Shown here: positions 1,782 through 54,719 of the stretch, in pieces
How positions within the stretch are numbered: position 1 is the first letter of the stretch
Layout: the number at the start of each line of letters is the position of its first letter
Source: Candidatus Woesebacteria bacterium UBA1430
GTDB taxonomy: Bacteria; Patescibacteriota; Microgenomatia; UBA8517
Direction: 5' to 3'
DNA: 64,000 bases
NCBI GenBank assembly: GCA_002329465.1
Contig: DCTW01000004.1
Coordinates: 66,933-130,932 of the forward strand
Notes under the pieces: model-generated
What the model saw: the letters and a program-made list of their open reading frames with translations, nothing else
The model's database searches: none
Told to the model about the DNA's origin: nothing
Translations under genes and position numbers: made by a program

Positions 1782-1783
1782 CT

Positions 1784-25463: not shown

Positions 25464-25791
25464 AAAAAACTCGCCCACCATAGTCAAGCTAGGAATTCTT
25501 ACTGTAATAACAACCTTTATCTGGATAGGTTTCGAGGTCTATAGAGCATTAAGTACCGAGCCCGAACCGATCGTATCCGAAGAAACACTCGCAAAAGTCG
25601 AACCAAACTTGGATACTAATGAAATGGACTCACTCCAACAAAGAATATACATAAACGAGGAAAACATAGCACCCATAAACATTGTTTCAAACACGCAAAC
25701 ATCACAAGAAGAACAAGAAGAAAATGCAGTTGAATCCGAAGAAGCAACAAATTCTGCACAAGAACAAATAGAGGAATCGGCAAATGAATAA
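25456..25791 (+). CDS. Small bitopic protein with acidic C-terminal tail, unknown function
   Basis: 111 aa with one TM (LGILTVITTFIWIGFEV). 8-nt overlaps with both neighbours, so it is co-translated with pilO and orf457. Confidence 0.45.
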   Translation: MNKKNSPTIVKLGILTVITTFIWIGFEVYRALSTEPEPIVSEETLAKVEPNLDTNEMDSLQQRIYINEENIAPINIVSNTQTSQEEQEENAVESEEATNSAQEQIEESANE

Positions 25792-27157
25792 ATCAAAAAT
25801 TCCCACAATATTAGGCATACTAATACTTATTACCGGAGTTGCCATGGGCGTTTTCATACTTCAGCAACAACAAACTTTTAAACTGGGGGCATCTCCCGAG
25901 GCATCTCCCAAAAACATAGAAATAACCAATATAACAAGCGAGTCATTTACAGTTTCCTGGACCACGGACAAAAAAACTGTAGGCTATCTCAAATGGGGCA
26001 AGGAAAAGCCTAGCGAAAATAACTCATATCAAGCCGAAAAAACGGCAAAAAACATACATCAAATATCACTTCACAACCTCGAGCCAAACACAAACTATTC
26101 CTTTATAATCAACTCGGACGGCAAAGACCACGATAACAACAATATTCCCTGGCAGGTAAAAACAGGCCCACCGCTTCCTCCTCCCCAAAAAACAAACATT
26201 ATCTCAGGAAAAGTCATACTTCCAACTGGACAACCCGCATCAAATACACTTATATATCTAAACGCAGCTGGTATATCACCGCTATCAACGCTAACCTCCT
26301 CAAATGGTGACTGGGTTATAGCAATATCAAACGCAAGATCAAACTCACTTAATTCATATGCGAACATCGATGAAAACACGCTTCTTGAAATTCTTGTTCA
26401 AGGAGGACCAAGTGGAATTGCCTCAGCACAAATTTATTTAAAAGCCGCAAATCCAACTCCACCGATAACCCTCGGGAAAATCCACGACTTTAGATCGGAA
26501 ACAGGAAACCCCCAAGAAGAAATCCCCGCATCGCAAATAAATCTTCCGGAGGAAACGGAAAAAGATATCGAATCAAAATTCGTCGTCCCGGAAGTTGAAA
26601 AAGAAGAAGAAACAAGCTCGGTTACCCTAGATAGCATCGAAGATAACGAAATAATATTCACAAACGACCCGGAATTCTTTGGAAAAGGCCCATCAGGAAA
26701 CTCAATTAAAATAACTGTTGAATCAGAACTCATAAGCGACGAGTTAACAATCCCCAGCTCGGGTGCATGGAAATGGAGCCCGCCTGAAAACTTGGAGCCC
26801 GGAGAGCACAAAATAACCCTCTCCTGGGTTGATAAAACAGGAATATTAAGAACACTCACAAGAACTTTTATAGTTCAAGCTGCGGAAAGCGAACCTGCAT
26901 TTGAATCTACACCGTCAGGCAACGAACCTTCGCCAACCCCCACCGTCAAACCAACGCAAACTCCCAAACCTACAGCAACAGCCACACCCGTATCTACAGC
27001 TACACCCAAAGCAACCGCCTCACCAACAAGTACCCCCAGAGTTAGTATCCCGTCAACCGATTCGGCTACGCCAATAGCAGGAAACCCCATACCAACAATA
27101 ATAATGCTTTCATTCGGAGCCGTATTTCTATTCTTAGGACTCTTTCTGGCAGTTTAA
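25784..27157 (+). CDS. Multidomain surface protein: signal anchor, FN3-like domain, CarboxypepD_reg-like domain, Ig-like domain, Pro/Thr-rich stalk, C-terminal sorting-signal-like TM
   Basis: ITNITSESFTVSWTTDKKTVGYLKWG...LEPNTNYSF (FN3), ISGKVILPTGQPASNTLIYLN...SSNGDWVI, a PTPTVKPTQTPKPTATATP stalk, and the end TPIAGNPIPTIIMLSFGAVFLFLGLFLAV. Confidence 0.7.
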   Translation: MNKSKIPTILGILILITGVAMGVFILQQQQTFKLGASPEASPKNIEITNITSESFTVSWTTDKKTVGYLKWGKEKPSENNSYQAEKTAKNIHQISLHNLEPNTNYSFIINSDGKDHDNNNIPWQVKTGPPLPPPQKTNIISGKVILPTGQPASNTLIYLNAAGISPLSTLTSSNGDWVIAISNARSNSLNSYANIDENTLLEILVQGGPSGIASAQIYLKAANPTPPITLGKIHDFRSETGNPQEEIPASQINLPEETEKDIESKFVVPEVEKEEETSSVTLDSIEDNEIIFTNDPEFFGKGPSGNSIKITVESELISDELTIPSSGAWKWSPPENLEPGEHKITLSWVDKTGILRTLTRTFIVQAAESEPAFESTPSGNEPSPTPTVKPTQTPKPTATATPVSTATPKATASPTSTPRVSIPSTDSATPIAGNPIPTIIMLSFGAVFLFLGLFLAV

Positions 27158-27184: not shown

Positions 27185-29644
27185 TTATCGCCAAGACTCT
27201 ATCCAATAATAACTCTCATTAATCCATCGTGGAACAAAAATTCCTGTCCAGTGTGGATAAAAATACAAAAAAGCCAGCGCTCCAAGGAAAAAAAATACAA
27301 AAACATACTTAGGTCTCATTCGTAAAAAAACACCTATACCCATCGAAAGAAATGGAATAGAAGGCAAATAATGATAAAAAAACATTATTCTTGGGGAAAA
27401 AGCCCAAGGTACAAAAAACACTAAATAAGATAGCACAACAAATCCTAATCTTTTACTTTTAGTCCTAAACGAATAAAAAGAAAGGAAAGCAATACTTAAA
27501 AGCCCAAACCAAACAACAACAGGATTGCCCATCGCATAAATATTTGATACTAATCCAGAATCATTCGAACCCGTATAAAGCCAAACAGGCCTAATAAGCA
27601 AAGGCCAGCTCCACCATGGCGAAGTGTACGCGTGCTCCGCCTCCAAATTGGTGTGGTACCACCACATCTGCTTTTGCATGCCAGTAAATATACTAAAATC
27701 ATGTCCCGTCAAAAACATTGGGATGTAACTAGCAACATAAAGGGTAGCCGGAATCAATAAATACCAAAAATAACCTAAAGAAAATTTCTTTTTAAAAGAA
27801 AAGTGAGCAACGACAAGAAGCGGAAAAAACCAAAAAGCCGTCCATTTCGACGCTAAAGAAAATCCAAAAGCTAAAGATGAAAAAAAGTACTTTGATCTTA
27901 AAAACATATATAAACTCAAGAGCATAAAAAACAAAAAATAAATATCGTTCATCCCAATCCTGCTCATAACCAAAAACAGCCCCTCAAGCGAAAGCGCACC
28001 CACCGAAAAAAGCGCCGTCTTTCTATCCTTAAATATTTCATAAGAAATAAAATAAACCAGTATTCCCGCTCCGACCCCGAAAATAGCAGCAGGCACTCTA
28101 TAGCCATAAGAACTCTCACCCATAAAATGCATCCCCACGGCCATAATTTCCTTCGCCAACGGCGGGTGAGTCCATTCGTAAGCAAACCCTTCAGGGTGAG
28201 GGTTCCACCACTCCCAAGCCTTAGGATCACCATGAAGTATAAGCTTTGCAGTAAAAGCATGATAAATCTCATCAAAATACTCATGCTTCGGAAGGCCAAT
28301 CCCGTAAATTCTCGAGACCAAAAGAAACAAAGTCATCGCTATCAATACTCGCTTAGCCCTTCTTGAATCAAGATCCTTTCCCTTAAAAAGGGTAGTTTTT
28401 ACAGCTCCCCCGCGCTCTTTAAATAAGCCTGACAAATTCTTAACATCAAAGTCTCCAAAACTCTCCCTCATTAAAGAAAAAACAAAAAGGAAAATACTAC
28501 ACAACGAAAAAAGGATAATTGCGGGTGCATTAAACACCTCTCTAAAGCCGTCGGTTATCCAAACGTAAGAATAATAAAGGTTCACAACATATAAAAAAGA
28601 AAGCCCCACATAAACAATCATCAAAAAAGGGTTAAACGCAACGGCTATAAGCAAAGGGGCAATAACAGGCAAAAGATGTCTCTCGTGCATTCGTGTCATA
28701 AAAAGATATAAAGTAAAAAACACAATCGAAGCGTAATAATATTTATCTTTTTCAACCAGCAAAGAACTCCTCCTCCAAGCTTTATAAAAAATACCCGAAA
28801 GAATAATAAAACTAATAAAATAACCTATTAAAAAAGGAGGGATAATCCCGCTTGTGTCACTTTTCCAAAATCCAAAAATACTCCAAAAATTAATAGCGTT
28901 TACACTTGTATAAGGATACTGTCCCAAAGACAAAAACACCCGCCGAAAAACAAACTCAACCAAATTCCCCGATGAAAAGGGAATAAACATCATAAAGAAA
29001 AAAATAGCAGAAGATAAAATATATAAAAACATATTTTTAACTATCCATTTCTTCTTCCAAAAAACAAATAAAATAATGGGTAGGATAAACAAAGTCTGGG
29101 GTTTAACCAGCACTCCATAAGAAAACAAAACACTTGATACAAAAAACGAACTCTTATCTAAAAAGTACAAAGCTGCAATCGAAAAAAACGAAGTAAGCGA
29201 ATCCACCTGTCCCCACAAAGAAGAATTTGCAAAAACCGCCGGATTAAAAATATAAAAACTTGCGACGATTAAAGAAAAATTCTTACTTTTGTATCTTCTG
29301 ACGATTTTATAAATCAAATAACCGGTTGCTATATCGGCAATTATCGCAGGCAGTTTATAAATTAAATGGGGATCTAAAAAACTAAACCAAACGCTTATTT
29401 TTCCCAAAAAATAAAGCACATAAAGATATCCGGGCAAGTAATCAGACCAGCCGTTATAAAATTCGCTAAATCCATGCTCCGAAAGCGTTCTGCTCCAGGA
29501 AACAAAAGTATTAAAATCAAGCTCTAAAGTACCAAAAGGCGAAAGAAAAATTCTCAACAAAAACCCAACAGCAAGAAAAAATAATATTTCATATTCTAAT
29601 TTTTTCATTTTACTAACCATGGCTTTATACATAATATAACCCAT
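27185..29644 (-). CDS. Fused double GT-C glycosyltransferase: N-terminal DUF2029/PIG-V-like mannosyltransferase module plus C-terminal GT39 (PMT-type, polyprenyl-phosphate-sugar dependent) module
   Basis: The C-terminal half has YFDEIYHAFTA...WTHPPLAKEIMAVG...YRVPAAIFG...MSRIGMNDIY (bacterial Pmt pattern). The N-terminal half has about 11 TMs with WSDYLPGYLYVLY. The track start 29755 would overlap the receiver gene; in-frame Met codons lie at 29644, 29632, 29620 and 29608. Confidence 0.82.
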   Translation of the reverse strand: MGYIMYKAMVSKMKKLEYEILFFLAVGFLLRIFLSPFGTLELDFNTFVSWSRTLSEHGFSEFYNGWSDYLPGYLYVLYFLGKISVWFSFLDPHLIYKLPAIIADIATGYLIYKIVRRYKSKNFSLIVASFYIFNPAVFANSSLWGQVDSLTSFFSIAALYFLDKSSFFVSSVLFSYGVLVKPQTLFILPIILFVFWKKKWIVKNMFLYILSSAIFFFMMFIPFSSGNLVEFVFRRVFLSLGQYPYTSVNAINFWSIFGFWKSDTSGIIPPFLIGYFISFIILSGIFYKAWRRSSLLVEKDKYYYASIVFFTLYLFMTRMHERHLLPVIAPLLIAVAFNPFLMIVYVGLSFLYVVNLYYSYVWITDGFREVFNAPAIILFSLCSIFLFVFSLMRESFGDFDVKNLSGLFKERGGAVKTTLFKGKDLDSRRAKRVLIAMTLFLLVSRIYGIGLPKHEYFDEIYHAFTAKLILHGDPKAWEWWNPHPEGFAYEWTHPPLAKEIMAVGMHFMGESSYGYRVPAAIFGVGAGILVYFISYEIFKDRKTALFSVGALSLEGLFLVMSRIGMNDIYFLFFMLLSLYMFLRSKYFFSSLAFGFSLASKWTAFWFFPLLVVAHFSFKKKFSLGYFWYLLIPATLYVASYIPMFLTGHDFSIFTGMQKQMWWYHTNLEAEHAYTSPWWSWPLLIRPVWLYTGSNDSGLVSNIYAMGNPVVVWFGLLSIAFLSFYSFRTKSKRLGFVVLSYLVFFVPWAFSPRIMFFYHYLPSIPFLSMGIGVFLRMRPKYVFVFFFLGALAFLYFYPHWTGIFVPRWINESYYWIESWR

Positions 29645-29679
29645 ACTGACCACTTGGACTATATAATATAATAAATAAA

Positions 29680-30072
29680 GTGGACACAAACCCAAAAAAC
29701 CCAACGGTGTTAATAATAGAAGACGATCAAGCCCTGGCAAAAATGTATTCGACAAAATTCCAAATGGAAGGCTTCAACTCAATAGTTGCAAAAGACGGTA
29801 AAAGCGGTATGGATTTTCTAAATACAAAAAGCCCTGACGCGATACTTCTCGACATCATGCTTCCCGGATATTCGGGATTGGATCTTCTCTCAAGCCTCCA
29901 ATCAAACCCCAAAGCCAAAAATACTGTTATATTAGCGCTCACAAATCACCCTCAAAAAGAAAGCGCTCAAAAAGCACTAAACCTCGGAGTAAAAGAATAT
30001 CTTGTAAAAGCAATGCAAACACCCGAAGAAGTAGTAGAAAAAGTCAAAAAATACCTAAATCTTCCACAATGA
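29680..30072 (+). CDS. Stand-alone response-regulator receiver domain (CheY-like)
   Basis: VLIIEDD, phospho-acceptor context AILLDIMLPGYSG, ILALTN, EYLVKA. All five conserved receiver positions are present. GTG start. ATGA overlap with the next gene. Confidence 0.85.
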   Translation: MDTNPKNPTVLIIEDDQALAKMYSTKFQMEGFNSIVAKDGKSGMDFLNTKSPDAILLDIMLPGYSGLDLLSSLQSNPKAKNTVILALTNHPQKESAQKALNLGVKEYLVKAMQTPEEVVEKVKKYLNLPQ

Positions 30073-31226
30073 GTCTTCAGGCCAAAACAAAACTGCCGTA
30101 TATCATTTTTATTTTTACTTTTTTAATCTATCTATTAACCTCAGGAGGCAACACTCCCTATAACTACTTTGTACTTTTCGCAGAAAGTTTCACAAAAGGC
30201 AAATACTGGATCGAGTCGGCGCCACCCTGGCTAAACGAACTCGTACCCACCGGCAGGGGACGCTACTATCTTGTCTATCCGCCAATGCCTTCTATCCTTC
30301 TTATGCCCTTCGTTCTATTCTTCGGCACCGCCTTTCCACAACAAATTCTGGCACACCTGTTGGGAGCTGGTTCAGTAACCTTAACATACCAAATAGCTCA
30401 AAAAAAACTGAAGTCGGCAAAAAAAGCACTTTGGGTATCCACGCTGACGGGATTTGGAACAATCATATGGTTTCTCTCAGCTACAGGCTCCGCCTGGTAT
30501 TTGGGACAAATATCAGCGTATTTTTTTGTAACGGCTGCAATTTACGAAACCGTCTCAAAAAAACGCCCAATTGCAATAGGGCTTTTCCTGGGAGCAGCCT
30601 ATCTTTCACGACTCCAAACTATACTTACTCTGCCTCTTATACTTTACCTTACCAATAAAGAAAGATTTAGTACTTGGCCAAAAATTTTAATCATACTAAG
30701 TATTTTTCTATCAATAAACTTCGGGTATAATTTCATTCGCTTCGGATCAATTCTTGATAAAGCATATATACTAATCCCGGGCGTTTTGAATGAACACTGG
30801 TACTCCAAAGGTCTTTTCCACCCAAGCTACATACCAAGACATATCAAAACAATTCTGCTGGAATTGCCCAAATTCTCAAAAAACCCTCCATTCATATGGC
30901 CGTCATGGGCCGGACTTGCTATTTGGATCACAACACCCGCATTTATATTTTCTCTATTCGCACCTCTCAAAAAAGCCGAGGTGGCTTTTTCTTGGCTGGT
31001 AATTTTTCTAGTATCAGCAGTAATATTTATGCACGGAACAGTAGGGTTCAGTCAATTCGGATACCGCTTTGCTGTCGACTTCTATCCGGTACTAATTTTT
31101 TTAATCATCATCTATCTTAAAAAAACAAATCTAAACTTCATCCACTGGACTCTTCTTACAATTTCGGTAATAGTTAACACATGGGGAGTACTGTGGATAA
31201 ACAAATTTGGCTGGGTATCCTTCTAA
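30069..31226 (+). CDS. GT-C fold membrane glycosyltransferase (ArnT/PMT_2-like)
   Basis: 385 aa with about 10 TMs; YYLVYPPMPSILLMPF loop motif. Translationally coupled to the receiver gene. Confidence 0.65.
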   Translation: MSLQAKTKLPYIIFIFTFLIYLLTSGGNTPYNYFVLFAESFTKGKYWIESAPPWLNELVPTGRGRYYLVYPPMPSILLMPFVLFFGTAFPQQILAHLLGAGSVTLTYQIAQKKLKSAKKALWVSTLTGFGTIIWFLSATGSAWYLGQISAYFFVTAAIYETVSKKRPIAIGLFLGAAYLSRLQTILTLPLILYLTNKERFSTWPKILIILSIFLSINFGYNFIRFGSILDKAYILIPGVLNEHWYSKGLFHPSYIPRHIKTILLELPKFSKNPPFIWPSWAGLAIWITTPAFIFSLFAPLKKAEVAFSWLVIFLVSAVIFMHGTVGFSQFGYRFAVDFYPVLIFLIIIYLKKTNLNFIHWTLLTISVIVNTWGVLWINKFGWVSF

Positions 31227-32608
31227 TACCTGCCTCTTTGGCGCTATATTCCTTAACTTTACTAAAAGACGTCGGCTTTTGGGACACGGCAGAATTCCAA
31301 ACCATCCTCTACACGCTCGACATCGCACACCCCACAGGCTACCCCACTTACATACTTTTAGGAAAACTGTTTCTTATTTTACTCCCGCTAAAAAATGTAG
31401 CACTTCAAATCAATTTTCTCTCAAGCATCCTTATATCTCTAGGATTATACTTTATTTCAAATTCAATATTCACAATCACCAAAAACAAATATGTCTCAAT
31501 ACTCACACCCTTTTTAATAATGACTTCCTCCGTTGTTTGGTCGCTCTCAACAGCTGCAGACCCTCACGCACTCCACTTTCTTTTTACATCTCTTTTTATA
31601 TATCTCTCCACCAAAATATTAATCCAAAATAGAACAAATTTTCTGCCAACTATTTTTCTTATTACAGGGCTATCGCTCGGAAATCACTTATTATCAATAT
31701 TTTTCTTATTGCCTCTTTTTTTAATTCTGGCAACAAAAGCCAAAAAAGCCCGGCCTTTTATAATAAAATCAATTCTTTTATTCTTTCTTGGTCTAAGCGT
31801 CTATGCGCTACTGCCGATAATTTCTTACTTTAAACCTCCCCTAACTACCGATTATTCTATAAACAGTCTTGATTCCTTTAGCCGCCACGTTTTCGGCAAA
31901 GATTTTAGTCCCCACTCCGGAAAATGGATCGGAGGAAGCGTGCTTTCAGCCCTTCAATTTTATTCGATTCAACTAAAACAATTTATCTCAATCGTTTTTC
32001 TGCCTCTTGCTTTAATTGGAATTGTCTCTCTTAAAAAAGAAAATCGCATTCTAAACTTTTCTCTATCATTTATTTTTCTCGGTACACTCCTTTTCAGCCT
32101 TAGATATCAAAACGCCGTTATAGAAAGATATTTCGCACCCTCTTTTGTTGTTATTCTTATCTGGATATCCTCATCAATCAACCCAATTTTACGTCTCTCT
32201 AAAAAATTCAAATTTATAGCTCTCCTTAGTTTTATACTTATTATCACAGTCCAAACAACAAAAAACATAAAAACAGTCTTTCCCTTAGTAAAACAAAACG
32301 GGTCAAACTCAGCGCGCACTTTTGCCGAAAAAACCATGGATCTGCTTCCGAAAAATTCGGCAATTATCTCTTGGTGGAGTTATTCTACACCGCTTTGGTA
32401 TCTACAAAAAGTCGAAGGAAAAAGGCAAGACGTTTTAATAATTAACGCGTCACAAAACGAATGGGAACAAATTGCGCTTAATCTTTATTCAAAAAAAGAA
32501 ATTTTCTTAATCAATTACATCGATCTTAAAAACCCTTCCTTTAAACTAATACACAAAGAGCACCTCTATCAATTTACTCCCCTGTCTTATGAGAATTCTC
32601 CCCAATAA
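31181..32608 (+). CDS. DUF2723 (TMEM260-like) GT-C glycosyltransferase
   Basis: GFWDTAEFQTILYTLDIAHPTGYPTYILLGKLF is the hallmark DUF2723 N-terminal loop. Polytopic, followed by a soluble C-terminal domain. Confidence 0.75.
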   Translation: MGSTVDKQIWLGILLIPASLALYSLTLLKDVGFWDTAEFQTILYTLDIAHPTGYPTYILLGKLFLILLPLKNVALQINFLSSILISLGLYFISNSIFTITKNKYVSILTPFLIMTSSVVWSLSTAADPHALHFLFTSLFIYLSTKILIQNRTNFLPTIFLITGLSLGNHLLSIFFLLPLFLILATKAKKARPFIIKSILLFFLGLSVYALLPIISYFKPPLTTDYSINSLDSFSRHVFGKDFSPHSGKWIGGSVLSALQFYSIQLKQFISIVFLPLALIGIVSLKKENRILNFSLSFIFLGTLLFSLRYQNAVIERYFAPSFVVILIWISSSINPILRLSKKFKFIALLSFILIITVQTTKNIKTVFPLVKQNGSNSARTFAEKTMDLLPKNSAIISWWSYSTPLWYLQKVEGKRQDVLIINASQNEWEQIALNLYSKKEIFLINYIDLKNPSFKLIHKEHLYQFTPLSYENSPQ

Positions 32609-33686
32609 TCTTGCCAACCCACTCATGCATTCCGCTCCAATCTCCAGCGATGGGAACTAAAACATACAAATTATTATAATCAGAAAATGGCGGGTTTTTA
32701 AGTAAACTTTCCTCAAAATCATGCATCTTTATCTTATCCCTAAAATCATAAGCTTTCCGCGCCAAAAAAACCTGGGCATATTCATCCATATCAGTCTCCG
32801 AAATAGATTTTATTAAATCCCAAAAACCAAAAAGTTTCCGCGGATGATACAAAAAATCACGACTTACTAACTTATCTTTAATCGCCACCATCACAAGCTG
32901 TGCACGTCTTGTCCTTGCAAAATCAGTGCCTTCTTCCAAATCCTCCGAATGCCTCGAACGCACATACTTTAAAGCAGTACCTCCATCCATGGTTGTCAGC
33001 CCTTTTTCAAACCTTATCGTCTCATACCGGCAAGCATACTCAGGGTCTCCATCACACAAATCTTCCCCTCTCCCCTCGATGGGATATTTTTTATCTTCAA
33101 AGCTCCTTGGTACGTCAACTTCCACCCCACCCAAATAATCAACGACCTCTTTAAATCCGTCAAAATTCATAGAAAAACCGTAATGAATAGGTATTCCCAA
33201 TATCTCCTCAACATAAGACTTGGCAAGAACAATTCCACCACCCGCCCTTCTTTCATTACCTATGCGATAAGCTCCATTAAGCTTGTCTCCAAGCTCCTCA
33301 ATCCATATATCACGAGGAACAGGTATTAAATCCACGCCAGAGCCGTAAATATCAAAAGAAGCAACTATCATAGTATCTGATAAAATTGGATTTTTTTCTC
33401 CGTCACCCGATAAGCCGAGAAAAAGCAAATTAGTTCTTCCGTCTGTAGATTTTACTTTTTTATTACTTGCAAAAATAAATGTAAAGCCCAATTCAGCGTA
33501 TTTATAATAACCGCTGAATTTCAGAAAAAAAACACCCACAGCCACAAAAAGGCTCAAAAAAACAAATATAGATAAAAAAACGCCGAAACGAACAAACAAA
33601 ATATGTCTTGCCAAAATTCTTCTTTTTACTCTCGCCAAAAACCTTTTCCTTCTCTCTGATAAAAATTTATGCCTTCTTTTTTCCAT
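32574..33686 (-). CDS. LytR-CpsA-Psr (LCP) family glycopolymer-to-peptidoglycan phosphotransferase
   Basis: N-terminal TM; TNLLFLGLSG...SDTMIVASFD...VDLIPVPRDIWI; RSRH...DFARTRRAQ. The ATG is at 33686 (the track start 33710 is TTG). The 3' end overlaps the DUF2723 gene convergently by 35 nt. Confidence 0.85.
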   Translation of the reverse strand: MEKRRHKFLSERRKRFLARVKRRILARHILFVRFGVFLSIFVFLSLFVAVGVFFLKFSGYYKYAELGFTFIFASNKKVKSTDGRTNLLFLGLSGDGEKNPILSDTMIVASFDIYGSGVDLIPVPRDIWIEELGDKLNGAYRIGNERRAGGGIVLAKSYVEEILGIPIHYGFSMNFDGFKEVVDYLGGVEVDVPRSFEDKKYPIEGRGEDLCDGDPEYACRYETIRFEKGLTTMDGGTALKYVRSRHSEDLEEGTDFARTRRAQLVMVAIKDKLVSRDFLYHPRKLFGFWDLIKSISETDMDEYAQVFLARKAYDFRDKIKMHDFEESLLKNPPFSDYNNLYVLVPIAGDWSGMHEWVGKIIGENSHKTGE

Positions 33687-33742
33687 GTTAGAATAAGTCT
33701 TGCAAAACAAAAACGCTTTTAATTATTGTATTTTATACCAAA

Positions 33743-43476: not shown

Positions 43477-44958
43477 ATGCTCAGAAAATTTTTAATCAAA
43501 CACAAATCTAAATCCCTTAGATTCTTTGAAATTTTGCCCGGGTTCGTTTCTTGGAATCTAATACTTTTTCCATATTGGGGGATATTTATAATTCCGGAAA
43601 TAGTCGCCTATTTTATTCTACTTTTTAATGTCTATTGGTTCTATCAAGCTTTCGGAATTGCAATAACGGCGACGATATCTCACTTCAGAATTGAAGCAAC
43701 AAAACACTACAATTGGATATCAGATATTAAAAACTTTCCCGATTACAAAAAAGTTCACCACATAGTCATTATCCCAACATACAAAGAACCAATTCACATT
43801 CTCGACCGAACAATAAACTCACTAGCCAATCAAGAAATCTCCAAAAAACAAATCTCCGTAGTTCTGGCCATGGAATTTAAAGAAGATTCTAAAGAAAGAG
43901 AGAGAAAAGTGAATTTTCTGCAAAAAAAATTTGGAAATATTTTTGCAAATTTTTTAGTAACCGTTCACAAGCTAGCTCCGGGTGAAGCAGTCGGAAAAGC
44001 ATCAAACGAATGCTACGCTGCTATAACCGCCAAAAAAAGAATAAAAATCGACATGAACTATACAACAGCTACAAGTTGTGACGCCGATCATGTATTTCAT
44101 CCTAAACATTTTTCTGTCCTAACCTACAAATTTCTTGACGACCCAAATCGCTACAAAAAATTTTGGCAACCGGCAGTCCTTCTTTACAATAATATATGGC
44201 GTTTGCCTGCAATAACGCGCGTGCCAAATATTCTAGCCTCCATCTTTATACTCTCAATGCTTCCAAGAAAAGACAGATTAATAAACCAACAAAACTACTC
44301 ACTCTCTTTCAAACTATTAGACAAAACAGGCTACTGGGACCCGGATAGAATTCCGGAAGACTGGGGCATTTTCTTCAAAGCGTTTTTCAAAAACAAAGGA
44401 AAAATCGAAGTAGAACCTCTTTACCTGCCCCTCTATGCAGACGCCATGGAATCTACCACAACCATCAAAACTCTCAAAGGCCAATACACCCAAGTAAAAC
44501 GCTGGGCATGGGGCGTATCCGACTCTTCTTGGGTTCTCTATAACTTTTTTGTCACTCCGGGCATGTCTTTCTGGGATAAAATCACCCGCGTTTCCACTTT
44601 CGTCCATGGACACTTTCTTTGGCCTGTACACTGGTTTATAATTACAATCGGCCTTACTCTTCCCGCCATAATCAACCCGGCATTCGGCAGGACCACTCTT
44701 GGTTATATGACTCCAAAAATATCCTCGGCTATTCTTACCATTGCTCTTGCATTTCTAGTCATCCTTCTTATTCTAGACTACCTCTACAAACCCAAACGAC
44801 CCAAAAATTTTCCTTTCTGGCGCGCCATTCTAGTTCCATTCGAATTCATTCTTATGCCAATTGCAACGTTTTTCTTTACCACCCTCCCGGGTTTAGACGC
44901 CCACACCAGATTAATGCTGGGAAAATATATCGAATATAAAGTAACAGAAAAAGTTTAA
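43477..44958 (+). CDS. Membrane-embedded processive family-2 glycosyltransferase (cellulose/chitin/PNAG-synthase-like)
   Basis: IIPTYKEP, TSCDADHVF (DxD), QVKRWAWG (QxxRW). TM helices on both sides of the catalytic domain. Confidence 0.8.
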   Translation: MLRKFLIKHKSKSLRFFEILPGFVSWNLILFPYWGIFIIPEIVAYFILLFNVYWFYQAFGIAITATISHFRIEATKHYNWISDIKNFPDYKKVHHIVIIPTYKEPIHILDRTINSLANQEISKKQISVVLAMEFKEDSKERERKVNFLQKKFGNIFANFLVTVHKLAPGEAVGKASNECYAAITAKKRIKIDMNYTTATSCDADHVFHPKHFSVLTYKFLDDPNRYKKFWQPAVLLYNNIWRLPAITRVPNILASIFILSMLPRKDRLINQQNYSLSFKLLDKTGYWDPDRIPEDWGIFFKAFFKNKGKIEVEPLYLPLYADAMESTTTIKTLKGQYTQVKRWAWGVSDSSWVLYNFFVTPGMSFWDKITRVSTFVHGHFLWPVHWFIITIGLTLPAIINPAFGRTTLGYMTPKISSAILTIALAFLVILLILDYLYKPKRPKNFPFWRAILVPFEFILMPIATFFFTTLPGLDAHTRLMLGKYIEYKVTEKV

Positions 44959-45001
44959 GTTGAAGACAGCAAAACAACTGGATATACTGAAATAAAGACA
45001 A

Positions 45002-46498
45002 ATGGTTAAAAAGGGGATAAAAAATTTTTTGATTTTTTGCCACATTCCTAATTGGTTATTCTTTGTCCTGATAGCCACACTTCTATTGCGCATTCCAAGC
45101 TTTTTCGAGCCTTACTACTACGGAGATGAGATGATCTATTTAACCCTTGGTCAAGGAATTAAAAACGGCCTCACTCTCTACAAAGACATCCACGACAACA
45201 AACCCCCCCTGCTTTATTACACGGCAGCTATTGCCGGAAGCGTATTCTGGTTTCGAGCAATTTTAACCATATGGATGTTAATAACTACAACCATTTTCTG
45301 GAAACTGGTTGTTAAATTATTTCCCAAAAACACACTGCTCCAAATTACATCCGTTATCTCCTTTGCCATATTAACTACAATACCGCTACTCGAAGGTCAA
45401 ATATCAAACGCTGAGCTTTTCATGATAGGCCCAACAATCCTTGCTTTTTATCTCCTACTAGATAAAAAACTTACTACAACAAAGCTTTTTCTATCGGGAG
45501 TTCTTTTTTCAATTTCAACGCTTTATAAAGTACCAGGGGCTTTCGACTTAGGAGCAATAATCTTCTTTTGGATCATTTACAAAAAGCTAAACCTTAAAAA
45601 ATCAATTCTTATCTTACTCGGCTTTCTCACCCCAATTATTTTAACAACAATTTGGTTCGCCTCCAAAAACTCCTTAAACGAATATATTAAAGCGGCTTTT
45701 CTCCAAAACATAGGCTATCTTTCCTCCTGGCGCCCATCTGATGTAGAAAGACCTTTTCTCCTAAGAAATTTGCCCCTTATCATAAGATCTGCTTTACTGA
45801 TATTAGGAATTTGTATTCTCTACATCAAAAAAACAAAAATCTCCAAAGAATTTGTCCTTACCGCTCTCTGGCTTCTTTTTAGCCTTTTTGCGGTCACACT
45901 TTCGGAAAGGCCATACCCGCACTATCTCATCCAATCGGTAGCCCCGGTATCAATCTTTGTCGGTATGCTTGTAGCACGAAAAAACAAAGAACAAGTCCTA
46001 TCAATTATCCCGCTTACACTAGCAATATTTGTGCCTGTATATTACGGATTCTGGCTTTATCCTTCGTTCCCTTATTATCAAAGGTTCATAAAATTCGCAA
46101 CCAAAAGCATCACCAAAGAAGAATATTTCAATCTTTTTGACCAAAATACCCAAAAAAACTACAAAATTGCAGAATATGTGCTCACATCCACAAACAAAAA
46201 CGACAAAATATTCGTCTGGGGTGACACATCAGTAATATATGCCCTAACCAAAAGACTTCCTCCAATCAAATATACGACCGATTATCATATAAAAGATTTT
46301 TATTCAATCAACGCTGCTATAGCCGAAATCAAAAAAACAAACCCTAAAATTATCATAATCATGACAGAAAACAGCGAAATATTAACATCGGAGTTTAAAC
46401 AGTTTCTTGATATAAATTATATTAAAGTTATACAAATCGAAAAAGCAATAATCTATAAATCCCTAAGCCCCATAGTTAAAAAAGCTCTCTTTTATTAA
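45002..46498 (+). CDS. GT-C fold glycosyltransferase, ArnT/GT39-like
   Basis: YYGDEMIYLTLGQGIKNG...IHDNKPPLLYY first-loop motif, about 11 TMs and a soluble C-terminal domain. Confidence 0.75.
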   Translation: MVKKGIKNFLIFCHIPNWLFFVLIATLLLRIPSFFEPYYYGDEMIYLTLGQGIKNGLTLYKDIHDNKPPLLYYTAAIAGSVFWFRAILTIWMLITTTIFWKLVVKLFPKNTLLQITSVISFAILTTIPLLEGQISNAELFMIGPTILAFYLLLDKKLTTTKLFLSGVLFSISTLYKVPGAFDLGAIIFFWIIYKKLNLKKSILILLGFLTPIILTTIWFASKNSLNEYIKAAFLQNIGYLSSWRPSDVERPFLLRNLPLIIRSALLILGICILYIKKTKISKEFVLTALWLLFSLFAVTLSERPYPHYLIQSVAPVSIFVGMLVARKNKEQVLSIIPLTLAIFVPVYYGFWLYPSFPYYQRFIKFATKSITKEEYFNLFDQNTQKNYKIAEYVLTSTNKNDKIFVWGDTSVIYALTKRLPPIKYTTDYHIKDFYSINAAIAEIKKTNPKIIIIMTENSEILTSEFKQFLDINYIKVIQIEKAIIYKSLSPIVKKALFY

Positions 46499-46552
46499 TC
46501 CATAATAATTGCCACAATTAAAACCAATACGCTAAAATAGGTAAACCTGTTT

Positions 46553-46903
46553 ATGAAATTAAAAAAACCCAATCTAAACTTTCTGCCCAAACCTGCTGTT
46601 ACAATAACAATATTTCTACTAAACATAATTGTACTTATTTTTATCTTCGCGGTTAAAAACCTCCTGCCCCCGGAAATACCGCTTCTTTACGGCAAACCAA
46701 GTGGGGAAGAGCAGCTTGTACCAAAAATTTACCTTTTTATACCGCCATCTCTTGCAATCGTCTTTCTACTTCTTAACTTAATTTTAATAAAATTCATTAA
46801 AGATAAATTTCTTCAATATTCGCTTTTATCCCTCTCCTTAATTATTACGATCCTTTCAACAATCACAGTATTAAAAATAATTTCAATAGTTGGGAATCTT
46901 TAA
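46553..46903 (+). CDS. Small 3-4 TM membrane protein, unknown function
   Basis: 116-aa hydrophobic ORF. TAATG overlap with the WecA-like gene. Confidence 0.45.
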   Translation: MKLKKPNLNFLPKPAVTITIFLLNIIVLIFIFAVKNLLPPEIPLLYGKPSGEEQLVPKIYLFIPPSLAIVFLLLNLILIKFIKDKFLQYSLLSLSLIITILSTITVLKIISIVGNL

Positions 46904-47967
46904 TGATAATAGATATTTTTTTTATCCCTTTTCTATTGGCCACCGTCATATCTCTCTTGTCCACATATCCGACAATTAAATTGGCATGGAAGCTAAATCT
47001 TATCGACGATCCCCAAAAGAACAAACATCCCAAAGTTATCCATAAAATCAAAACTCCGCGAGGAGGCGGTCTGGCAATATTTATATCAATCCTGCTTACA
47101 AGCTTAATTTTCCTGCCACTCGACAAACATCTCAAAGGAATTATCTGTGGGGCAACAATTCTAACAGCACTGGGCCTGCTCGACGACAAATATAATCTAA
47201 ACCCGTATCTAAGACTGATAGTACAATTTACAGCCGCAAGCATGCCAATTATAGCCGGAATAGGCATCGCCTTTTGGAAAAGCCCTTTCGGCAATATAAT
47301 TGATCTTTCACAACCCCAAATAAATCTATTTCTTTTAGGAGAAACAAGATCAATCTGGATTCTATCTGATTTATTTGCGCTTTTCTGGATCGTAGCTATT
47401 ATGAATTTTCTGAACATGGGAGCTAAAGGCGTTGACGGCCAGCTAACCGGAGTTGTTGCAATCGCGGCACTAACAATAAGCCTGCTTTCGCTTAAATTTT
47501 CAGCAGATATCACCGAATGGCATACAACCACTCTCGGCGCAATTACCTTCGGAAGCTTTTTAGGTTTCTTACCTTGGCACATCTATCCTCAAAAAATAAT
47601 GCCAAGCTTCTCTGGGTCGAACCTTGGAGGCTATATGCTTGCAATTCTTTCAATTCTTACAACAGCAAAAGTAGGAACACTTGCATTAGTTCTCGCAGTG
47701 CCGCTTGTAGATACTACATATATAATAATCAGACGAGTTCTTTCTGGTAAATCACCTGTCTGGGGTGACAATAGGCATTTGCACCACAAACTTCTAGAAA
47801 GCGGCCTAAGCATTAAACAAGTTGCCGCCTTCTATTGGGCTGTAACGGCTGTCTTCGGAATACTCTCGCTGTTTTTGAACTCGGAAAATAAACTGTATAC
47901 TATGATAGGAGTAGCCCTCCTTACAGGAGGAATTACCTTATGGCTAAATCACAAACAAAAACAATAA
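46903..47967 (+). CDS. Polyprenyl-phosphate HexNAc-1-phosphate transferase (MraY/WecA/TagO family, GT4)
   Basis: LIDDPQKNKHPKVIHKIKTPRGGG, LGLLDDKYNLNP, NFLNMGAKGVDGQ; 10-11 TMs. Confidence 0.85.
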   Translation: MIIDIFFIPFLLATVISLLSTYPTIKLAWKLNLIDDPQKNKHPKVIHKIKTPRGGGLAIFISILLTSLIFLPLDKHLKGIICGATILTALGLLDDKYNLNPYLRLIVQFTAASMPIIAGIGIAFWKSPFGNIIDLSQPQINLFLLGETRSIWILSDLFALFWIVAIMNFLNMGAKGVDGQLTGVVAIAALTISLLSLKFSADITEWHTTTLGAITFGSFLGFLPWHIYPQKIMPSFSGSNLGGYMLAILSILTTAKVGTLALVLAVPLVDTTYIIIRRVLSGKSPVWGDNRHLHHKLLESGLSIKQVAAFYWAVTAVFGILSLFLNSENKLYTMIGVALLTGGITLWLNHKQKQ

Positions 47968-48887
47968 TAGGCATCATAAAAATTTCCAGACCCATCCACT
48001 GGGTTAAAAATTTCGGAATTTTCGCAGCACTTATATTTTCAAACAATCTCTTTAACAAGCCCATGTTTATCAAAACTTTCTGGGGATTTTGGATATTCAA
48101 CGTCGCGGCAAGCGCAACCTACACATTCAACGATATTCTCGATGCAAAAAGAGACCGCCTCCACCCAATCAAAAAGGAAAGACCAATAGCAAAAGGGGAT
48201 ATTAAACCCCAAACCGCACTTTTTCTTTCTGGAATACTTGCGCTAATATCACTCACCAGCGCACTTTATCTCTCTGAAATATTTTTCTTACTAATCCTTG
48301 CTTATCTATTAATTCAGATTTCGTATTCGCTCTTTCTCAAAAGCCTCCATGTTATAGACATTCTGATTATCGCAACAGGCTTTATTATTCGAGTATATTC
48401 TGGCGCTTTTCTTATTAATGCTCACTTATCCGTATGGTTCTTGTTGTGTGTAATCTCGGTAGCACTTTTTCTCGCATCAGGTAAAAGAAGAGCAGAGCTA
48501 AGCATAATGGGTAGATCAGCAAAAACAAGGCAAAGCCTTTCAAAATACAGCCCCGAGCTTCTAAATTCCTACGTTACAATGTTTGGTAACGCTGCGTGGA
48601 TGAGCTGGGCTCTTTTTTCATTTTTTGAATCTCCACAAGCATCGCTTCCTCTGTGGCTAATCTTGGCCGAATTTTCAAAAACCACAACGGTAAACAAATT
48701 AATGATGATAACAATACCCATTGCAATCTTCGGCATTATGCGGTACGAAAGCTTAATATTCGAAGGCAAATCCGAAACTCCTGAAAAACTTCTTCTCTCG
48801 GATAAATCGCTCATCGCCTCTGTGGCAATATGGGTTGCAATTATAATTTGGATTCTTTACGGCAACATCGCGGCCTATTCGGCCTAA
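47940..48887 (+). CDS. UbiA-family prenyltransferase resembling decaprenyl-phosphate phosphoribosyltransferase (DPPR synthase)
   Basis: SRPIHWVKNFGIFAALIF, NDILDAKRDRLHPIKKERPIAKG (NDxxDxxxD). AGGAGG SD 10 nt upstream, inside the wecA-like 3' end. Confidence 0.78.
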   Translation: MAKSQTKTIIGIIKISRPIHWVKNFGIFAALIFSNNLFNKPMFIKTFWGFWIFNVAASATYTFNDILDAKRDRLHPIKKERPIAKGDIKPQTALFLSGILALISLTSALYLSEIFFLLILAYLLIQISYSLFLKSLHVIDILIIATGFIIRVYSGAFLINAHLSVWFLLCVISVALFLASGKRRAELSIMGRSAKTRQSLSKYSPELLNSYVTMFGNAAWMSWALFSFFESPQASLPLWLILAEFSKTTTVNKLMMITIPIAIFGIMRYESLIFEGKSETPEKLLLSDKSLIASVAIWVAIIIWILYGNIAAYSA

Positions 48888-53103: not shown

Positions 53104-54636
53104 TTAATCGCTTGACCGCACTCTATACTGAAGCGCTTCGGCAACACAAGTAGCATCAATATCCTTTCTTCCTGCCAAATCGGCAATCGTTCTTGCCACT
53201 TTTATAATCCTAAAATATGTTCTTGCGGATAATCCATAGGTATTAACCGCCTGTTTTAAAATTGCCTGTCCCGCGCTATCAAGCACGCAGTACTTCTTAA
53301 TATGCTTATTTTTCATGTCCGAATTTGTATAAATCCCGTCTTTCTCAAACCTTTTTAATTGTATTTTTCTCGCCCTCAAAACACGCTCCCGCACAGAAAT
53401 CGATCGTTCAGGTTTCTTTACAACACCTCTCTCCATCAGCTCATCAACATCCAAAGCGGGAACATTAATGTGTATATCAATTCTATCCATCAAAGGTCCA
53501 GAGAGCTTTGTCTGATACCTCATTATCTGCCTAGGGCTACATTTACACTCACGCTTAGCATCCCCCAAATAGCCGCACGGGCAAGGATTACTGGCCGCAA
53601 CAAGCATAAAAGAAGCCGGAAACTTTACACTTCCGGCAGCCCTTGTTATAGAAACTTCACCATCCTCCATTGGCTGCCTCAAAGCCTCAAGCGTTCCTCT
53701 GCTAAATTCAGGAAACTCATCCAAAAACAAAACTCCACGGTGAGCAAGCGAGATCTCCCCGGGGTGAGGATTGCTTCCACCGCCTATAAGCCCAATCCTG
53801 CTTGTTGTATGATGAGATACTCGAAACGGCCTGTCATAAACAAGGCTTGCCCCAGCAGGCAAATTCCCCGAAACCGAATATATCTTAGTTACTTCAAGAC
53901 TTTCCTTTTCGCTCAATGGAGGCAAAATTCCGGCCATCGCTCTTGCAAGCATGGTTTTCCCCGATCCCGGAGGACCTTGCATATGAACATTGTGCCCACC
54001 GGAAGCAGCAATCTCCAAAGCCCGCTTTGCGCTCTCCTGCCCCAGTATGTCGGAAAAATCAATCTCCGGAAATATATCTTCATGAATATCGATTTCTTTC
54101 AAACCACGAAACACGCCAATTTGCCCTCCTCCATTAAAATGAGAAAGAATTTGTGCCAAATTCTCAACCGGATAAACCCGCACTCCACTCACCACAGCAG
54201 CCTCAAATGAAGAATCTTTAGGAACAAATAAACTTTTTATTCCACGCTCTTTTGCATAAAGAGCAAGAAGTAAAACCCCCTTAGTATGTCTTAAACTTCC
54301 ATCCAGCGAAAGCTCTCCATAAAAAAACATCTTTTCCGAAGGCAAGCTTATAGCTTCCAAAGATCTTAAAATCCCGCATGCAATTGGCAAATCATAACTG
54401 CTTCCTTCCTTGGGAATATCGGCAGGAGCAAGATTAACCACTATCTTTGCGTTCGGAAACTCAACTCCACTATTAACAAGCGCCGTCTTCACTCGCTCCT
54501 TCGCTTCCTCAACAGACTTACTGGGAAGCCCAATAATATTAAATCCCGGAAAACCTTTTTTAGCAATATTTACCTCAACTTCAACAGGCAACGTATCAAG
54601 TCCAAAGTGCGTAGCAGACATTACCTTCGTAAGCAT
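53104..54636 (-). CDS. comM: Mg-chelatase-like AAA+ ATPase YifB/ComM
   Basis: Lon-like N-domain, DFSDILGQESAKRALEIAASGGHN, GPPGSGKTMLA, GVLFLDEFPEF, a CxxC zinc motif and a C-terminal ChlI helical domain. Confidence 0.92.
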   Translation of the reverse strand: MLTKVMSATHFGLDTLPVEVEVNIAKKGFPGFNIIGLPSKSVEEAKERVKTALVNSGVEFPNAKIVVNLAPADIPKEGSSYDLPIACGILRSLEAISLPSEKMFFYGELSLDGSLRHTKGVLLLALYAKERGIKSLFVPKDSSFEAAVVSGVRVYPVENLAQILSHFNGGGQIGVFRGLKEIDIHEDIFPEIDFSDILGQESAKRALEIAASGGHNVHMQGPPGSGKTMLARAMAGILPPLSEKESLEVTKIYSVSGNLPAGASLVYDRPFRVSHHTTSRIGLIGGGSNPHPGEISLAHRGVLFLDEFPEFSRGTLEALRQPMEDGEVSITRAAGSVKFPASFMLVAASNPCPCGYLGDAKRECKCSPRQIMRYQTKLSGPLMDRIDIHINVPALDVDELMERGVVKKPERSISVRERVLRARKIQLKRFEKDGIYTNSDMKNKHIKKYCVLDSAGQAILKQAVNTYGLSARTYFRIIKVARTIADLAGRKDIDATCVAEALQYRVRSSD

Positions 54637-54684
54637 TAAAAAATATTTTACTTTAAAAAAACTCCCCTTTTCCAGAGATAATCG

Positions 54685-54713
54685 TTGATTTAAATTTCAA
54701 AACATCCTATAAT
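54685..54713 (+). promoter_or_regulatory. Near-consensus promoter (TTGATT-17 nt-TATAAT), with the orf171 ATG 6 nt downstream (leaderless geometry)
   Basis: Hexamers at 54685..54690 and 54708..54713; ATATTT, then ATG 54720; no SD. Confidence 0.55.
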
Positions 54714-54719
54714 ATATTT

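What the first reader, a model, noticed from the sequence alone, without database searches (positions are those of the whole stretch)
27185..32608. Lone CheY-like receiver domain translationally coupled to GT-C glycosyltransferases
A complete receiver domain (acidic pocket EDD, acceptor Asp in LLDIMLPG, the conserved T and K) with no output domain sits between a divergent 800+-aa double GT-C gene and two further GT-C genes. Its TGA overlaps the ATG of the next glycosyltransferase (ATGA at 30069..30072), and no histidine kinase is present in the window. Single-domain receivers usually act through protein-protein contact, so this context suggests phospho-dependent control of membrane glycosyltransferases. 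I do not know of a described example.
Basis: partly seen in the sequence, partly recalled or inferred. Interest (0 to 1): 0.65.

Follow-up and report, generated by a model that had tools for sequence, protein, structure and literature searches.

The report
Orphan receiver in GT-C glycosylation locus
A small phosphorylation-switch protein with no output domain shares an operon with membrane sugar-transferases in a minority of Woesebacteria (ultra-small CPR bacteria), which hints at direct phospho-control of surface glycosylation but does not prove it.

Summary
Window 29680..30072 encodes a complete 130-aa stand-alone receiver. Its stop overlaps the start of the next gene (ATGA). It sits between a fused double GT-C gene (819 aa, minus strand) and two more GT-C genes, and the 64-kb window has no histidine kinase.

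The adjacency is not unique to this genome. A receiver subgroup ("B-type") lies in this same locus in 12 loci, about 10 species-level lineages in 2-3 Woesebacteria clades. In 9 of the 12 it is within 30 nt of the 385-aa GT-C on the same strand, upstream in some clades and downstream in others.

Only 6 of about 50 Woesebacteria species with the same conserved envelope locus carry the receiver. Its closest paralogs ("A-type") sit next to a 7TM histidine kinase elsewhere. One B-type genome has that kinase about 180 kb away.

A precedent exists: in Myxococcus, EpsW~P, an orphan single-domain regulator encoded in the eps locus, binds and activates the phosphoglycosyl transferase EpsZ (mBio 2025). 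No GT-C example was found.

Best reading (confidence about 0.4): an accessory, kinase-distal receiver that modulates GT-C glycosylation after translation. The main rival is a hitchhiking paralog in the locus's variable slot. Interest is moderate.

The parts
27185..29644 (-). Fused double GT-C glycosyltransferase ('GTC819', 819 aa). The N-half is a divergent GT-C module. The C-half is PMT-like and carries the conserved YFDE[IV]YHAFTA segment.
   Evidence: Pfam PMT, PMT_2 and PMT_4TMC on the C-half. hhalign N-half vs C-half 97.8%, E=1e-12, and the halves are split genes in other phyla. That the FDE segment corresponds to the catalytic Asp-Glu motif of protein O-mannosyltransferases is from general knowledge, not tested.
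29645..29679 (.). Short AT-rich divergent intergenic region between GTC819 and the receiver (35 bp if GTC819 starts at 29644; up to about 71 bp with a later Met).
   Evidence: Sequence. The consensus scan found no significant promoter: 2 sites against 2.4 expected. One minus-strand site at 29740-29713 lies inside the receiver gene.
29680..30072 (+). Single-domain response-regulator receiver (130 aa, 'B-type'). E14-D15-D16, D58, T88, Y107 and K110 are all present.
   Evidence: Pfam. RR468 alignment. AF2 model, pLDDT 91.5. Family alignment and conservation.
30069..31226 (+). 'GT385', a 385-aa polytopic GT-C-fold protein with no Pfam family. Its start overlaps the receiver stop (ATGA).
   Evidence: Sequence. 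AF2 model. Foldseek top hits all GT-C. Weak NCBIfam LA_3751/2 putative GT hit. 912 homologs at E<=1e-3; the 120 best listed are about 360-410 aa.
31181..32608 (+). 'GT475', a TMEM260-like/DUF2723 GT-C. It overlaps the end of GT385 by 46 nt (34 nt if it starts at 31193). It is an accessory gene, present in only a few related loci.
   Evidence: Pfam PF11028 E=2.4e-19. Among related loci it is found only in L014, L036, L041 and L068.
32574..33686 (-). LCP (LytR-CpsA-Psr) glycopolymer-to-peptidoglycan transferase, convergent with GT475.
   Evidence: Pfam PF03816 E=1.8e-27. NCBIfam TIGR00350 86.8 bits against a cut-off of 62.3.
25784..27157 (+). fn3/Big_13 surface protein with a Pro/Thr-rich C-terminal linker and a TM anchor. 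It is convergent with GTC819 and syntenic in nearly all related loci. It is a candidate glycosylation substrate (inference only).
   Evidence: Pfam. Sequence. Synteny.

Best explanation
The gene encodes a real, phosphorylatable single-domain response regulator. It belongs to a subgroup ('B-type') of the single-domain receiver family that dominates Woesebacteria signalling. The A-type relatives are encoded beside a 7TM histidine kinase. The B-type copy is encoded away from any kinase, inside the conserved envelope locus MurJ / PilN-PilO / surface protein / GTC819 <> GT385 / LCP / UvrD / FemAB, and usually in one transcription unit with GT385.

Most likely mechanism. The distal HisKA_7TM kinase phosphorylates D58. 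The phosphorylated receiver then docks through its diverged alpha4-beta5-alpha5 face on the cytoplasmic side of one of the GT-C enzymes, or on their complex. This tunes lipid-linked-sugar-dependent glycosylation of surface proteins or wall polymers after translation. The logic parallels EpsW~P acting on EpsZ.

Shown: domain identity and intact catalytic residues, operon context, conservation of the linkage in about 10 lineages, absence of a kinase locally, and presence of the kinase elsewhere in one B-type genome.

Inferred: which kinase phosphorylates it, that it binds a GT-C, and the direction of the effect.
For: (1) The phospho-acceptor site is intact, there is no output domain, and the receiver fold is predicted with confidence.

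(2) Every B-type receiver whose context could be read lies in this locus: window, L014, L011, L178, L179 (upstream of GT385; overlaps of 4-14 nt or a 16-nt gap), L022, L026, L180 (divergent from GTC819, convergent with a DUF2298-like membrane protein), and L037, L052, L059, L177 (9-27 nt downstream of GT385). At least one immediate neighbour is always a GT-C.

(3) The contexts of P0013 and P0016 were predicted from their position in the receiver tree and then confirmed.

(4) Across about 0.8 Mb of flanks from about 50 Woesebacteria loci, the only receivers found lie between GTC819 and UvrD.

(5) A-type paralogs sit next to a HisKA_7TM kinase. Seventeen receiver hits share a contig length with kinase hits, and none of the B-type do.

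(6) Genome GCA_040961665.1 carries both a B-type receiver in the GT-C locus and the 7TM kinase about 180 kb away on the same 925-kb contig.

(7) B-type and A-type share invariant catalytic residues and invariant alpha1 positions (M22, Y23, K26, F27). I read alpha1 as the kinase-docking helix from general knowledge. They differ at the start of alpha4 (92-96) and in the beta5-alpha5 loop (113), which is the classical output face.

(8) The mechanism has a precedent: EpsW~P binds and activates EpsZ (PMC12802240).
Against: Only 6 of about 50 species-representative loci with the same backbone have the receiver, so the GT-C enzymes work without it.

The whole neighbourhood is very strongly syntenic. 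Persistence of the linkage inside 2-3 clades (UvrD tree) could be plain vertical inheritance, which gives only 2-3 independent events.

The slot between GTC819 and UvrD is the variable part of the locus and accepts other genes too.

Monophyly of the B-type group has only 37/100 bootstrap support.

No GT385 column and no feature of the GTC819 linker separates receiver-positive from receiver-negative loci.

In the GT385 model, successive membrane helices are only a few residues apart, so cytoplasmic docking surface looks small (inferred from the helix boundaries).

In three loci the receiver is not co-transcribed with GT385. In the 'downstream' clade it is equally close to UvrD.

No complex prediction could be run.
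Confidence: 0.4

Rival explanations
1. Hitchhiking paralog. The receiver is one more branch of the 7TM-kinase pathway, acting as a phosphate sink or connector, or as an output towards type IV pili or another target. Its place in the GT-C locus reflects a duplicate landing in the locus's variable slot, followed by vertical inheritance. There is no functional tie to the glycosyltransferases.
For: The receiver is absent from about 44 of 50 loci with the same backbone. The receiver-positive species form only 2-3 clades. The slot is gene-content variable. A-type and B-type share the highly conserved beta5-alpha5 segment KEYLVKAMxTPExVV and the alpha1 positions, which could mean a shared partner. 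The kinase neighbourhoods are rich in pilus genes: PilM_2, N_methyl pilin-like genes and a VWA protein. No GT-C feature co-varies with receiver presence.
Against: The receiver occupies two different sides of GT385 in different clades, yet stays on the same strand within 30 nt. Chance predicts this poorly for a roughly 0.9-Mb genome. No B-type receiver was found outside this locus. B-type sequences differ from A-type on the output face.
Confidence: 0.35
2. The receiver targets a non-GT-C envelope protein encoded nearby, such as the LCP ligase, MurJ, FemAB or the PilN/PilO pilus platform. It would coordinate wall or pilus assembly rather than glycosyl transfer itself.
For: The locus is a conserved envelope-biogenesis block. 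In L177 the receiver abuts the LCP gene.
Against: The LCP gene is missing from the 'downstream' clade loci L037, L052 and L059, which keep the receiver. MurJ, PilN/O and FemAB are never immediate neighbours. A GT-C gene always is.
Confidence: 0.12
3. The receiver is phosphorylation-independent: a pseudo-receiver or structural subunit, or one charged by small-molecule donors such as acetyl phosphate, with no dedicated kinase.
For: There is no kinase in the window. The ComM neighbourhood, which holds the kinase/receiver cluster in three of the five kinase-linked loci read (L013, L174, L175), lacks it here. The lysine is followed by Ala, not Pro, in the whole family; that Pro is the usual residue there is from general knowledge. 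B-type sequences are less conserved than A-type.
Against: All phospho-chemistry residues (D15, D16, D58, T88, K110) and the switch residue Y107 are invariant or nearly so across B-type members. A B-type genome does carry the family's kinase.
Confidence: 0.08

Closest known systems
EpsW / EpsZ of Myxococcus xanthus (PMC12802240, mBio 2025; PMC4671073, Sci Rep 2015)
   Same: A single-domain response regulator encoded inside a surface-glycan biosynthesis locus. Its kinase (DifE) is encoded elsewhere. It acts after translation by binding a membrane glycosyl-transfer enzyme. It is present in only some orthologous loci (9 of 15 in myxobacteria).
   Different: The partner there is a large monotopic phosphoglycosyl transferase that acts on the cytoplasmic face. 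Here the neighbours are polytopic GT-C enzymes, whose catalytic sites face outward as a rule. The window receiver is not an EpsW ortholog: NCBIfam NF041866 scores 51 bits against a cut-off of 200. In myxobacteria a structural feature of EpsZ (a missing beta-hairpin) tracks EpsW presence. No such correlate was found here. Here the interaction is only inferred.
A-type single-domain receivers of Woesebacteria with the HisKA_7TM histidine kinase (loci L013, L174, L175, L176, L181)
   Same: Same receiver family at 44-63% identity. They share the catalytic residues, the alpha1 positions and the KEYLVKAMxTPExVV tail. They are probably charged by the same kinase.
   Different: A-type genes lie within a few kb of the kinase, often beside glycogen phosphorylase and pilus-related genes. 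The window receiver lies in the GT-C locus with no kinase nearby, and it differs at the start of alpha4 and at position 113.
Stand-alone receivers such as Thermotoga RR468 and CheY (PDB 3dge, 6azr)
   Same: Best solved sequence relatives (E about 5e-15). Same length, same fold, same active-site residues, no output domain.
   Different: RR468 is encoded with its kinase HK853, and CheY works in chemotaxis (general knowledge). No cognate kinase and no chemotaxis or flagellar gene was found among the window proteins scanned.
PmrA/PmrB control of ArnT (established knowledge, not tested here)
   Same: Two-component signalling that governs a GT-C enzyme modifying the envelope.
   Different: That control is transcriptional, through a DNA-binding regulator. 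The window receiver has no DNA-binding domain.

Membership tests
Response-regulator receiver domain (Pfam PF00072, CheY-like) | Profile match above the curated threshold and a (beta-alpha)5 fold | tested here: met
   81 bits against a cut-off of 30.2, E=9e-23. AF2 model pLDDT 91.5 with five strand-helix units.
Response-regulator receiver domain (Pfam PF00072, CheY-like) | Acidic pocket (Asp-Asp), phospho-acceptor Asp, conserved Thr/Ser, conserved Lys, aromatic switch residue | tested here: met
   D15-D16, D58, T88 and K110 align with the DD, D, T and K of RR468. Y107 sits three residues before the lysine. All are invariant or nearly so in the family.
Response-regulator receiver domain (Pfam PF00072, CheY-like) | Actual phosphorylation by a histidine kinase | not testable with these tools
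   No kinase in the window. A candidate HisKA_7TM kinase exists in a related B-type genome.
Single-domain (stand-alone) response regulator | No output domain fused to the receiver | tested here: met
   130 aa, with the receiver covering residues 10-122. All 120 listed homologs are 108-188 aa and carry PF00072 (one also has a PF03709 hit).
EpsW-type regulator (NCBIfam NF041866) | Equivalog score at or above the curated cut-off | tested here: not met
   51.2 bits against a cut-off of 200. It resembles EpsW only as any receiver does.
EpsW-type regulator (NCBIfam NF041866) | Partner is a large monotopic phosphoglycosyl transferase in the same locus | tested here: not met
   The neighbours are GT-C enzymes and an LCP protein. 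The only PGT-like gene in the window (Glycos_transf_4, 46903..47967) is 17 kb away.
GT-C fold glycosyltransferases (for GT385, GTC819, GT475) | Polytopic membrane protein with the GT-C fold or a GT-C family profile | tested here: met
   GT385: Foldseek top 23 hits are all GT-C-type membrane proteins (glycosyltransferases, plus the PIG-U subunit of GPI transamidase); best is ArnT at E=1e-4. GTC819: PMT/PMT_2/PMT_4TMC, and N-half vs C-half hhalign 97.8%. GT475: PF11028.
GT-C fold glycosyltransferases (for GT385, GTC819, GT475) | Catalytic acidic residue in the first extracytoplasmic loop | tested here: inconclusive
   The GTC819 C-half keeps the conserved FDE motif. In GT385, E57 is invariant, but the consensus Asp of 'PYDYF' is Asn (N32) in the window protein. 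Activity was not tested.
Chemotaxis CheY | Co-occurrence with CheA/CheW/MCP or a flagellar switch | tested here: not met
   No such domains among the window proteins scanned or in the related loci read.

The most novel reading that the evidence does not exclude
In a subset of CPR bacteria, a two-component signal from a 7TM histidine kinase that is encoded with type IV pilus genes is relayed by a dedicated stand-alone receiver straight onto GT-C fold glycosyltransferases. Surface-protein, pilin or wall glycosylation would then be switched after translation. This would be the first case of phospho-receiver control of a GT-C enzyme, and the first two-component output pathway worked out in Woesebacteria.
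Probability: 0.2. Interest if true: 0.7.

Novelty: new variant of a known kind. Interest (0 to 1): 0.42.

Why it matters
GT-C enzymes (ArnT, PMT, STT3, Emb/Aft and others) build key envelope glycoconjugates. As far as I could find, none is known to be regulated by direct binding of a response regulator. The only described regulator-on-enzyme case in glycan synthesis is EpsW acting on the monotopic PGT EpsZ (2025).

If the B-type receiver really docks on a GT-C, that principle would extend to a second, unrelated enzyme architecture and to the CPR. In those organisms signalling is almost unexplored, and surface glycans and pili probably mediate host attachment.

If it does not, the locus still gives a clean example of how small genomes spread single-domain receivers of one family over different loci. 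It also defines a conserved three-module GT-C set (GT385 plus the two halves of GTC819), shared with Dadabacteria and Thermodesulfobacteriota, that has no assigned product.

Tried and rejected
(1) The metagenome-contig scan with the receiver alignment was saturated by generic receivers (identity 40% or lower). It gave nothing usable and spent the only scan.

(2) I tried to approximate a complex prediction by fusing receiver, Gly/Ser linker and GT385 with paired rows from 10 loci.

(3) I looked for GT385 alignment columns that separate receiver-positive from receiver-negative loci. The best columns are only 56-89% against 2-31%, and none is clean. The GTC819 inter-module linker is variable and K/R-rich in both groups.

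(4) The profile search of GT385 against PDB sequences found nothing (E=0.43). The fold search was needed.

(5) I looked for the kinase of the window's own species through contig-length matching. No kinase hit with contig length 901682 (CP055307.1) appeared among the 120 listed. The kinase could only be shown in the related genome GCA_040961665.1.

(6) The promoter/terminator scan of 29300-30300 gave no more than chance. Rfam found only tRNA-Cys in the window.

(7) The chemotaxis-CheY reading was rejected because there are no che or flagellar genes. EpsW orthology was rejected on score.

(8) Literature searches for Woesebacteria plus response regulator, and for single-domain regulators with glycosyltransferases or GT-C, found no described GT-C case.


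Full report
**What is there**

The window is from a Woesebacteria-type CPR bacterium. GT385 is 96% identical to a protein of the complete genome CP055307.1, Candidatus Woesebacteria Ch104b. Identical proteins occur on 20 metagenome contigs with the same gene order.

The region 27185-33710 holds these genes:
- GTC819 (27185..29644, minus strand)
- a 35-bp AT-rich gap
- the receiver (29680..30072, plus strand)
- GT385 (30069..31226, plus strand)
- GT475 (31181..32608, plus strand)
- an LCP ligase (32574..33686, minus strand)

Upstream lie MurJ, S20, PilN, PilO, a 111-aa gene and an fn3/Big_13 surface protein. Downstream lie UvrD, two FemAB genes, an AddA-like helicase and RmuC.

**Checking the observation**

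The receiver matches PF00072 at E=9e-23 over residues 10-122 of 130. Its alignment to the stand-alone receiver RR468 (PDB 3dge) pairs D15-D16, D58, T88 and K110 with RR468's aligned residues. The AF2 model (pLDDT 91.5) has the five strand-helix units.

The ATGA overlap at 30069-30072 is in the sequence.

GT385 has no Pfam family. Its AF2 model (pLDDT 85, pTM 0.89) hits only GT-C structures at the top of a PDB fold search: ArnT, ALG12, STT3, PMT, PimE, ALG3.

The GTC819 C-half is PMT-like. Its N-half has no Pfam hit alone, but it is homologous to the C-half (hhalign 97.8%, E=1e-12). The two halves occur as separate adjacent genes in Dadabacteria and Thermodesulfobacteriota, so 'double GT-C' is correct.

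GT475 is TMEM260-like.

No HisKA or HATPase_c domain occurs in 43 window proteins. phmmer with four CPR kinases found none.

**Is the adjacency conserved?**

I searched one genome per species (GTDB) with a GT385 alignment and obtained 80 loci. I annotated them with profiles made from the window proteins and from 120 receiver homologs.

About 50 Woesebacteria/Microgenomates loci share one backbone:
MurJ(-) S20 PilN PilO h111 fn3Big ... GTC819(-) <> GT385(+) ... LCP(-) UvrD FemA FemB AddA(-).

Between GTC819 and UvrD the content varies. It includes extra GT-C-like genes: PMT_2, YfhO, DUF2298-like and PIG-V-like.

A receiver occurs in only six of these loci. All six receivers lie in that interval, and none occurs elsewhere in about 0.8 Mb of flanks.

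Metagenome look-ups of receiver homologs added L011, L177, L178, L179 and L180.

Across all twelve receiver-positive loci there are three arrangements:
- Upstream of GT385: overlap of 4, 4, 8 or 14 nt, or a 16-nt gap (window, L014, L179, L178, L011).
- Divergent from GTC819 but separated from GT385 by a convergent DUF2298-like gene (L022, L026, L180).
- 9-27 nt downstream of GT385 (L037, L052, L059, L177).

**Two kinds of receiver**

Other close homologs (P0005, P0038, P0063, P0067) lie in a different, recurring context. It reads: a HisKA_7TM/HisKA/HATPase_c kinase, sometimes a first receiver, a 200-aa gene on the other strand, the receiver, then glycogen phosphorylase.

Seventeen receiver hits share their contig length with kinase hits. 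None of the GT-C-locus receivers does.

In an NJ tree, the GT-C-locus receivers ('B-type') group apart from these 'A-type' ones. I predicted from the tree that P0013 and P0016 would lie in the GT-C locus, and they do.

Bootstrap support for B-type monophyly is weak (37/100). The downstream trio has 100/100.

A UvrD tree used as a species proxy puts the upstream and divergent species in one clade, the downstream trio in another, and L177 apart. There are therefore only two or three independent events.

**The kinase**

Contig JBFOMY010000007.1 (925 kb, GCA_040961665.1) carries a B-type receiver in the GT-C locus at 710-723 kb. It also carries a HisKA_7TM kinase at 527-541 kb, followed by pilin-like genes, a VWA protein and another 125-aa receiver.

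So a B-type genome has the family's kinase about 180 kb away.

For the window's own species I could not see the rest of the genome. The ComM gene (53104..54636) neighbours the kinase cluster in L013, L174 and L175, but it has no such cluster beside it in the window.

**Sequence comparison of B-type and A-type**

The catalytic residues and the alpha1 positions M22, Y23, K26 and F27 are invariant in both groups.

Conserved-but-different positions fall at residue 17, at the start of alpha4 (92-96: QKEEA against EEEEK), at 104, and at 113 in the beta5-alpha5 loop (Q in 100% of A-type; Y, F, H or Q in B-type).

From general knowledge of receiver domains, alpha1 carries kinase specificity and alpha4-beta5-alpha5 is the usual output face. 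I read the pattern as 'same kinase, different target'. That is an inference.

**How it most likely works**

The best-supported model is an accessory branch of the 7TM-kinase pathway. Its receiver is co-expressed with GT-C enzymes and modulates them by contact when phosphorylated.

The model has a direct precedent. EpsW is a single-domain regulator encoded in the eps locus and phosphorylated by the distal kinase DifE. It binds and activates the phosphoglycosyl transferase EpsZ, and it co-occurs with only 9 of 15 EpsZ orthologs (PMC12802240; PMC4671073).

The window protein is not an EpsW ortholog (51 bits against a cut-off of 200), and its neighbours are GT-C enzymes, not a PGT. It resembles EpsW in logic, not in family membership.

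**Against the model**

- Most relatives keep the locus without a receiver.
- Synteny is so strong that inheritance alone could keep the linkage.
- The receiver sits in the variable slot of the locus.
- Nothing in GT385 or in the GTC819 linker tracks receiver presence.
- In the GT385 model, successive membrane helices are only a few residues apart, so its cytoplasmic loops look short.
- Complex prediction was not possible.

I therefore give the direct-control model 0.4, the hitchhiking-paralog model 0.35, another envelope target 0.12, and a phosphorylation-independent role 0.08.

**Novelty and verdict**

The receiver itself is ordinary. The association with GT-C enzymes is real, recurrent and, as far as the searched literature shows, undescribed. 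However, it is confined to a minority of one CPR class, and its function is untested.

It is a new variant of a known kind: an orphan single-domain regulator embedded in a surface-glycan locus. Interest is moderate (0.42).

Noticed in passing
window 1-64000: GC skew is negative in every 2-kb bin (-0.07 to -0.40), whichever strand the genes are on. AT skew rises to about +0.3 where genes are on the plus strand (22-30 kb). The strand bias is very strong and uniform, so the whole window probably lies on one replichore.
   Followed up: no
window 25784-27157 (+): An fn3/Big_13 surface protein with an N-terminal TM segment, a long Pro/Thr-rich C-terminal linker and a C-terminal TM anchor. It is convergent with the PMT-like GTC819 and syntenic with it in nearly all Woesebacteria loci. 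It is a plausible O-glycosylation substrate.
   Followed up: partly
loci L069-L084 (Dadabacteria, Thermodesulfobacteriota and contigs labelled Spirochaetia), e.g. L072 7944-12523: A GT385 homolog lies next to two separate genes of about 440 aa that match the N-half and the C-half of GTC819. The three-module GT-C set therefore occurs beyond the CPR, and the two halves are fused into one gene in Woesebacteria.
   Followed up: partly
L175 478-7432; L176 774-7414; L181 799-11118: The HisKA_7TM kinase of Woesebacteria is repeatedly encoded with type IV pilus-like genes: PilM_2, N_methyl pilin-like genes, and a weak VWA_2 match (E=1e-3, below the Pfam cut-off) in a 384-aa protein that recalls PilY1. 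One or two single-domain receivers lie alongside. This suggests the family's two-component system is tied to pili.
   Followed up: partly
window 43477-48887 (+): A second glycan gene group: a GT2 (Glyco_trans_2_3), a 498-aa protein with no Pfam hit, a Glycos_transf_4 phosphoglycosyl transferase and a UbiA-family prenyltransferase. These could supply the lipid-linked sugar donors that GT-C enzymes need.
   Followed up: no
window 53104-55235: ComM/Mg-chelatase-like gene (53104..54636, minus strand). In L013, L174 and L175 the kinase, receiver and glycogen-phosphorylase cluster lies beside this gene. In the window that cluster is missing at this position.
   Followed up: partly
window 1113-3970 (-): A 728-aa protein with a weak Baseplate_J-like hit (E=1e-4) lies directly upstream of a sortase gene. 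This is an odd pairing for a CPR genome.
   Followed up: no
L178 3248-4414; L179 1818-2978: In these two receiver-positive loci the gene after the receiver is a very divergent GT385-like paralog, on the longest branch of the GT385 tree. It still overlaps the receiver stop by 8-14 nt.
   Followed up: no
window 6052-6678 (-): A 208-aa protein that combines an HTH_25 domain (as in RodZ) with a glucodextranase domain-B-like C-terminus.
   Followed up: no
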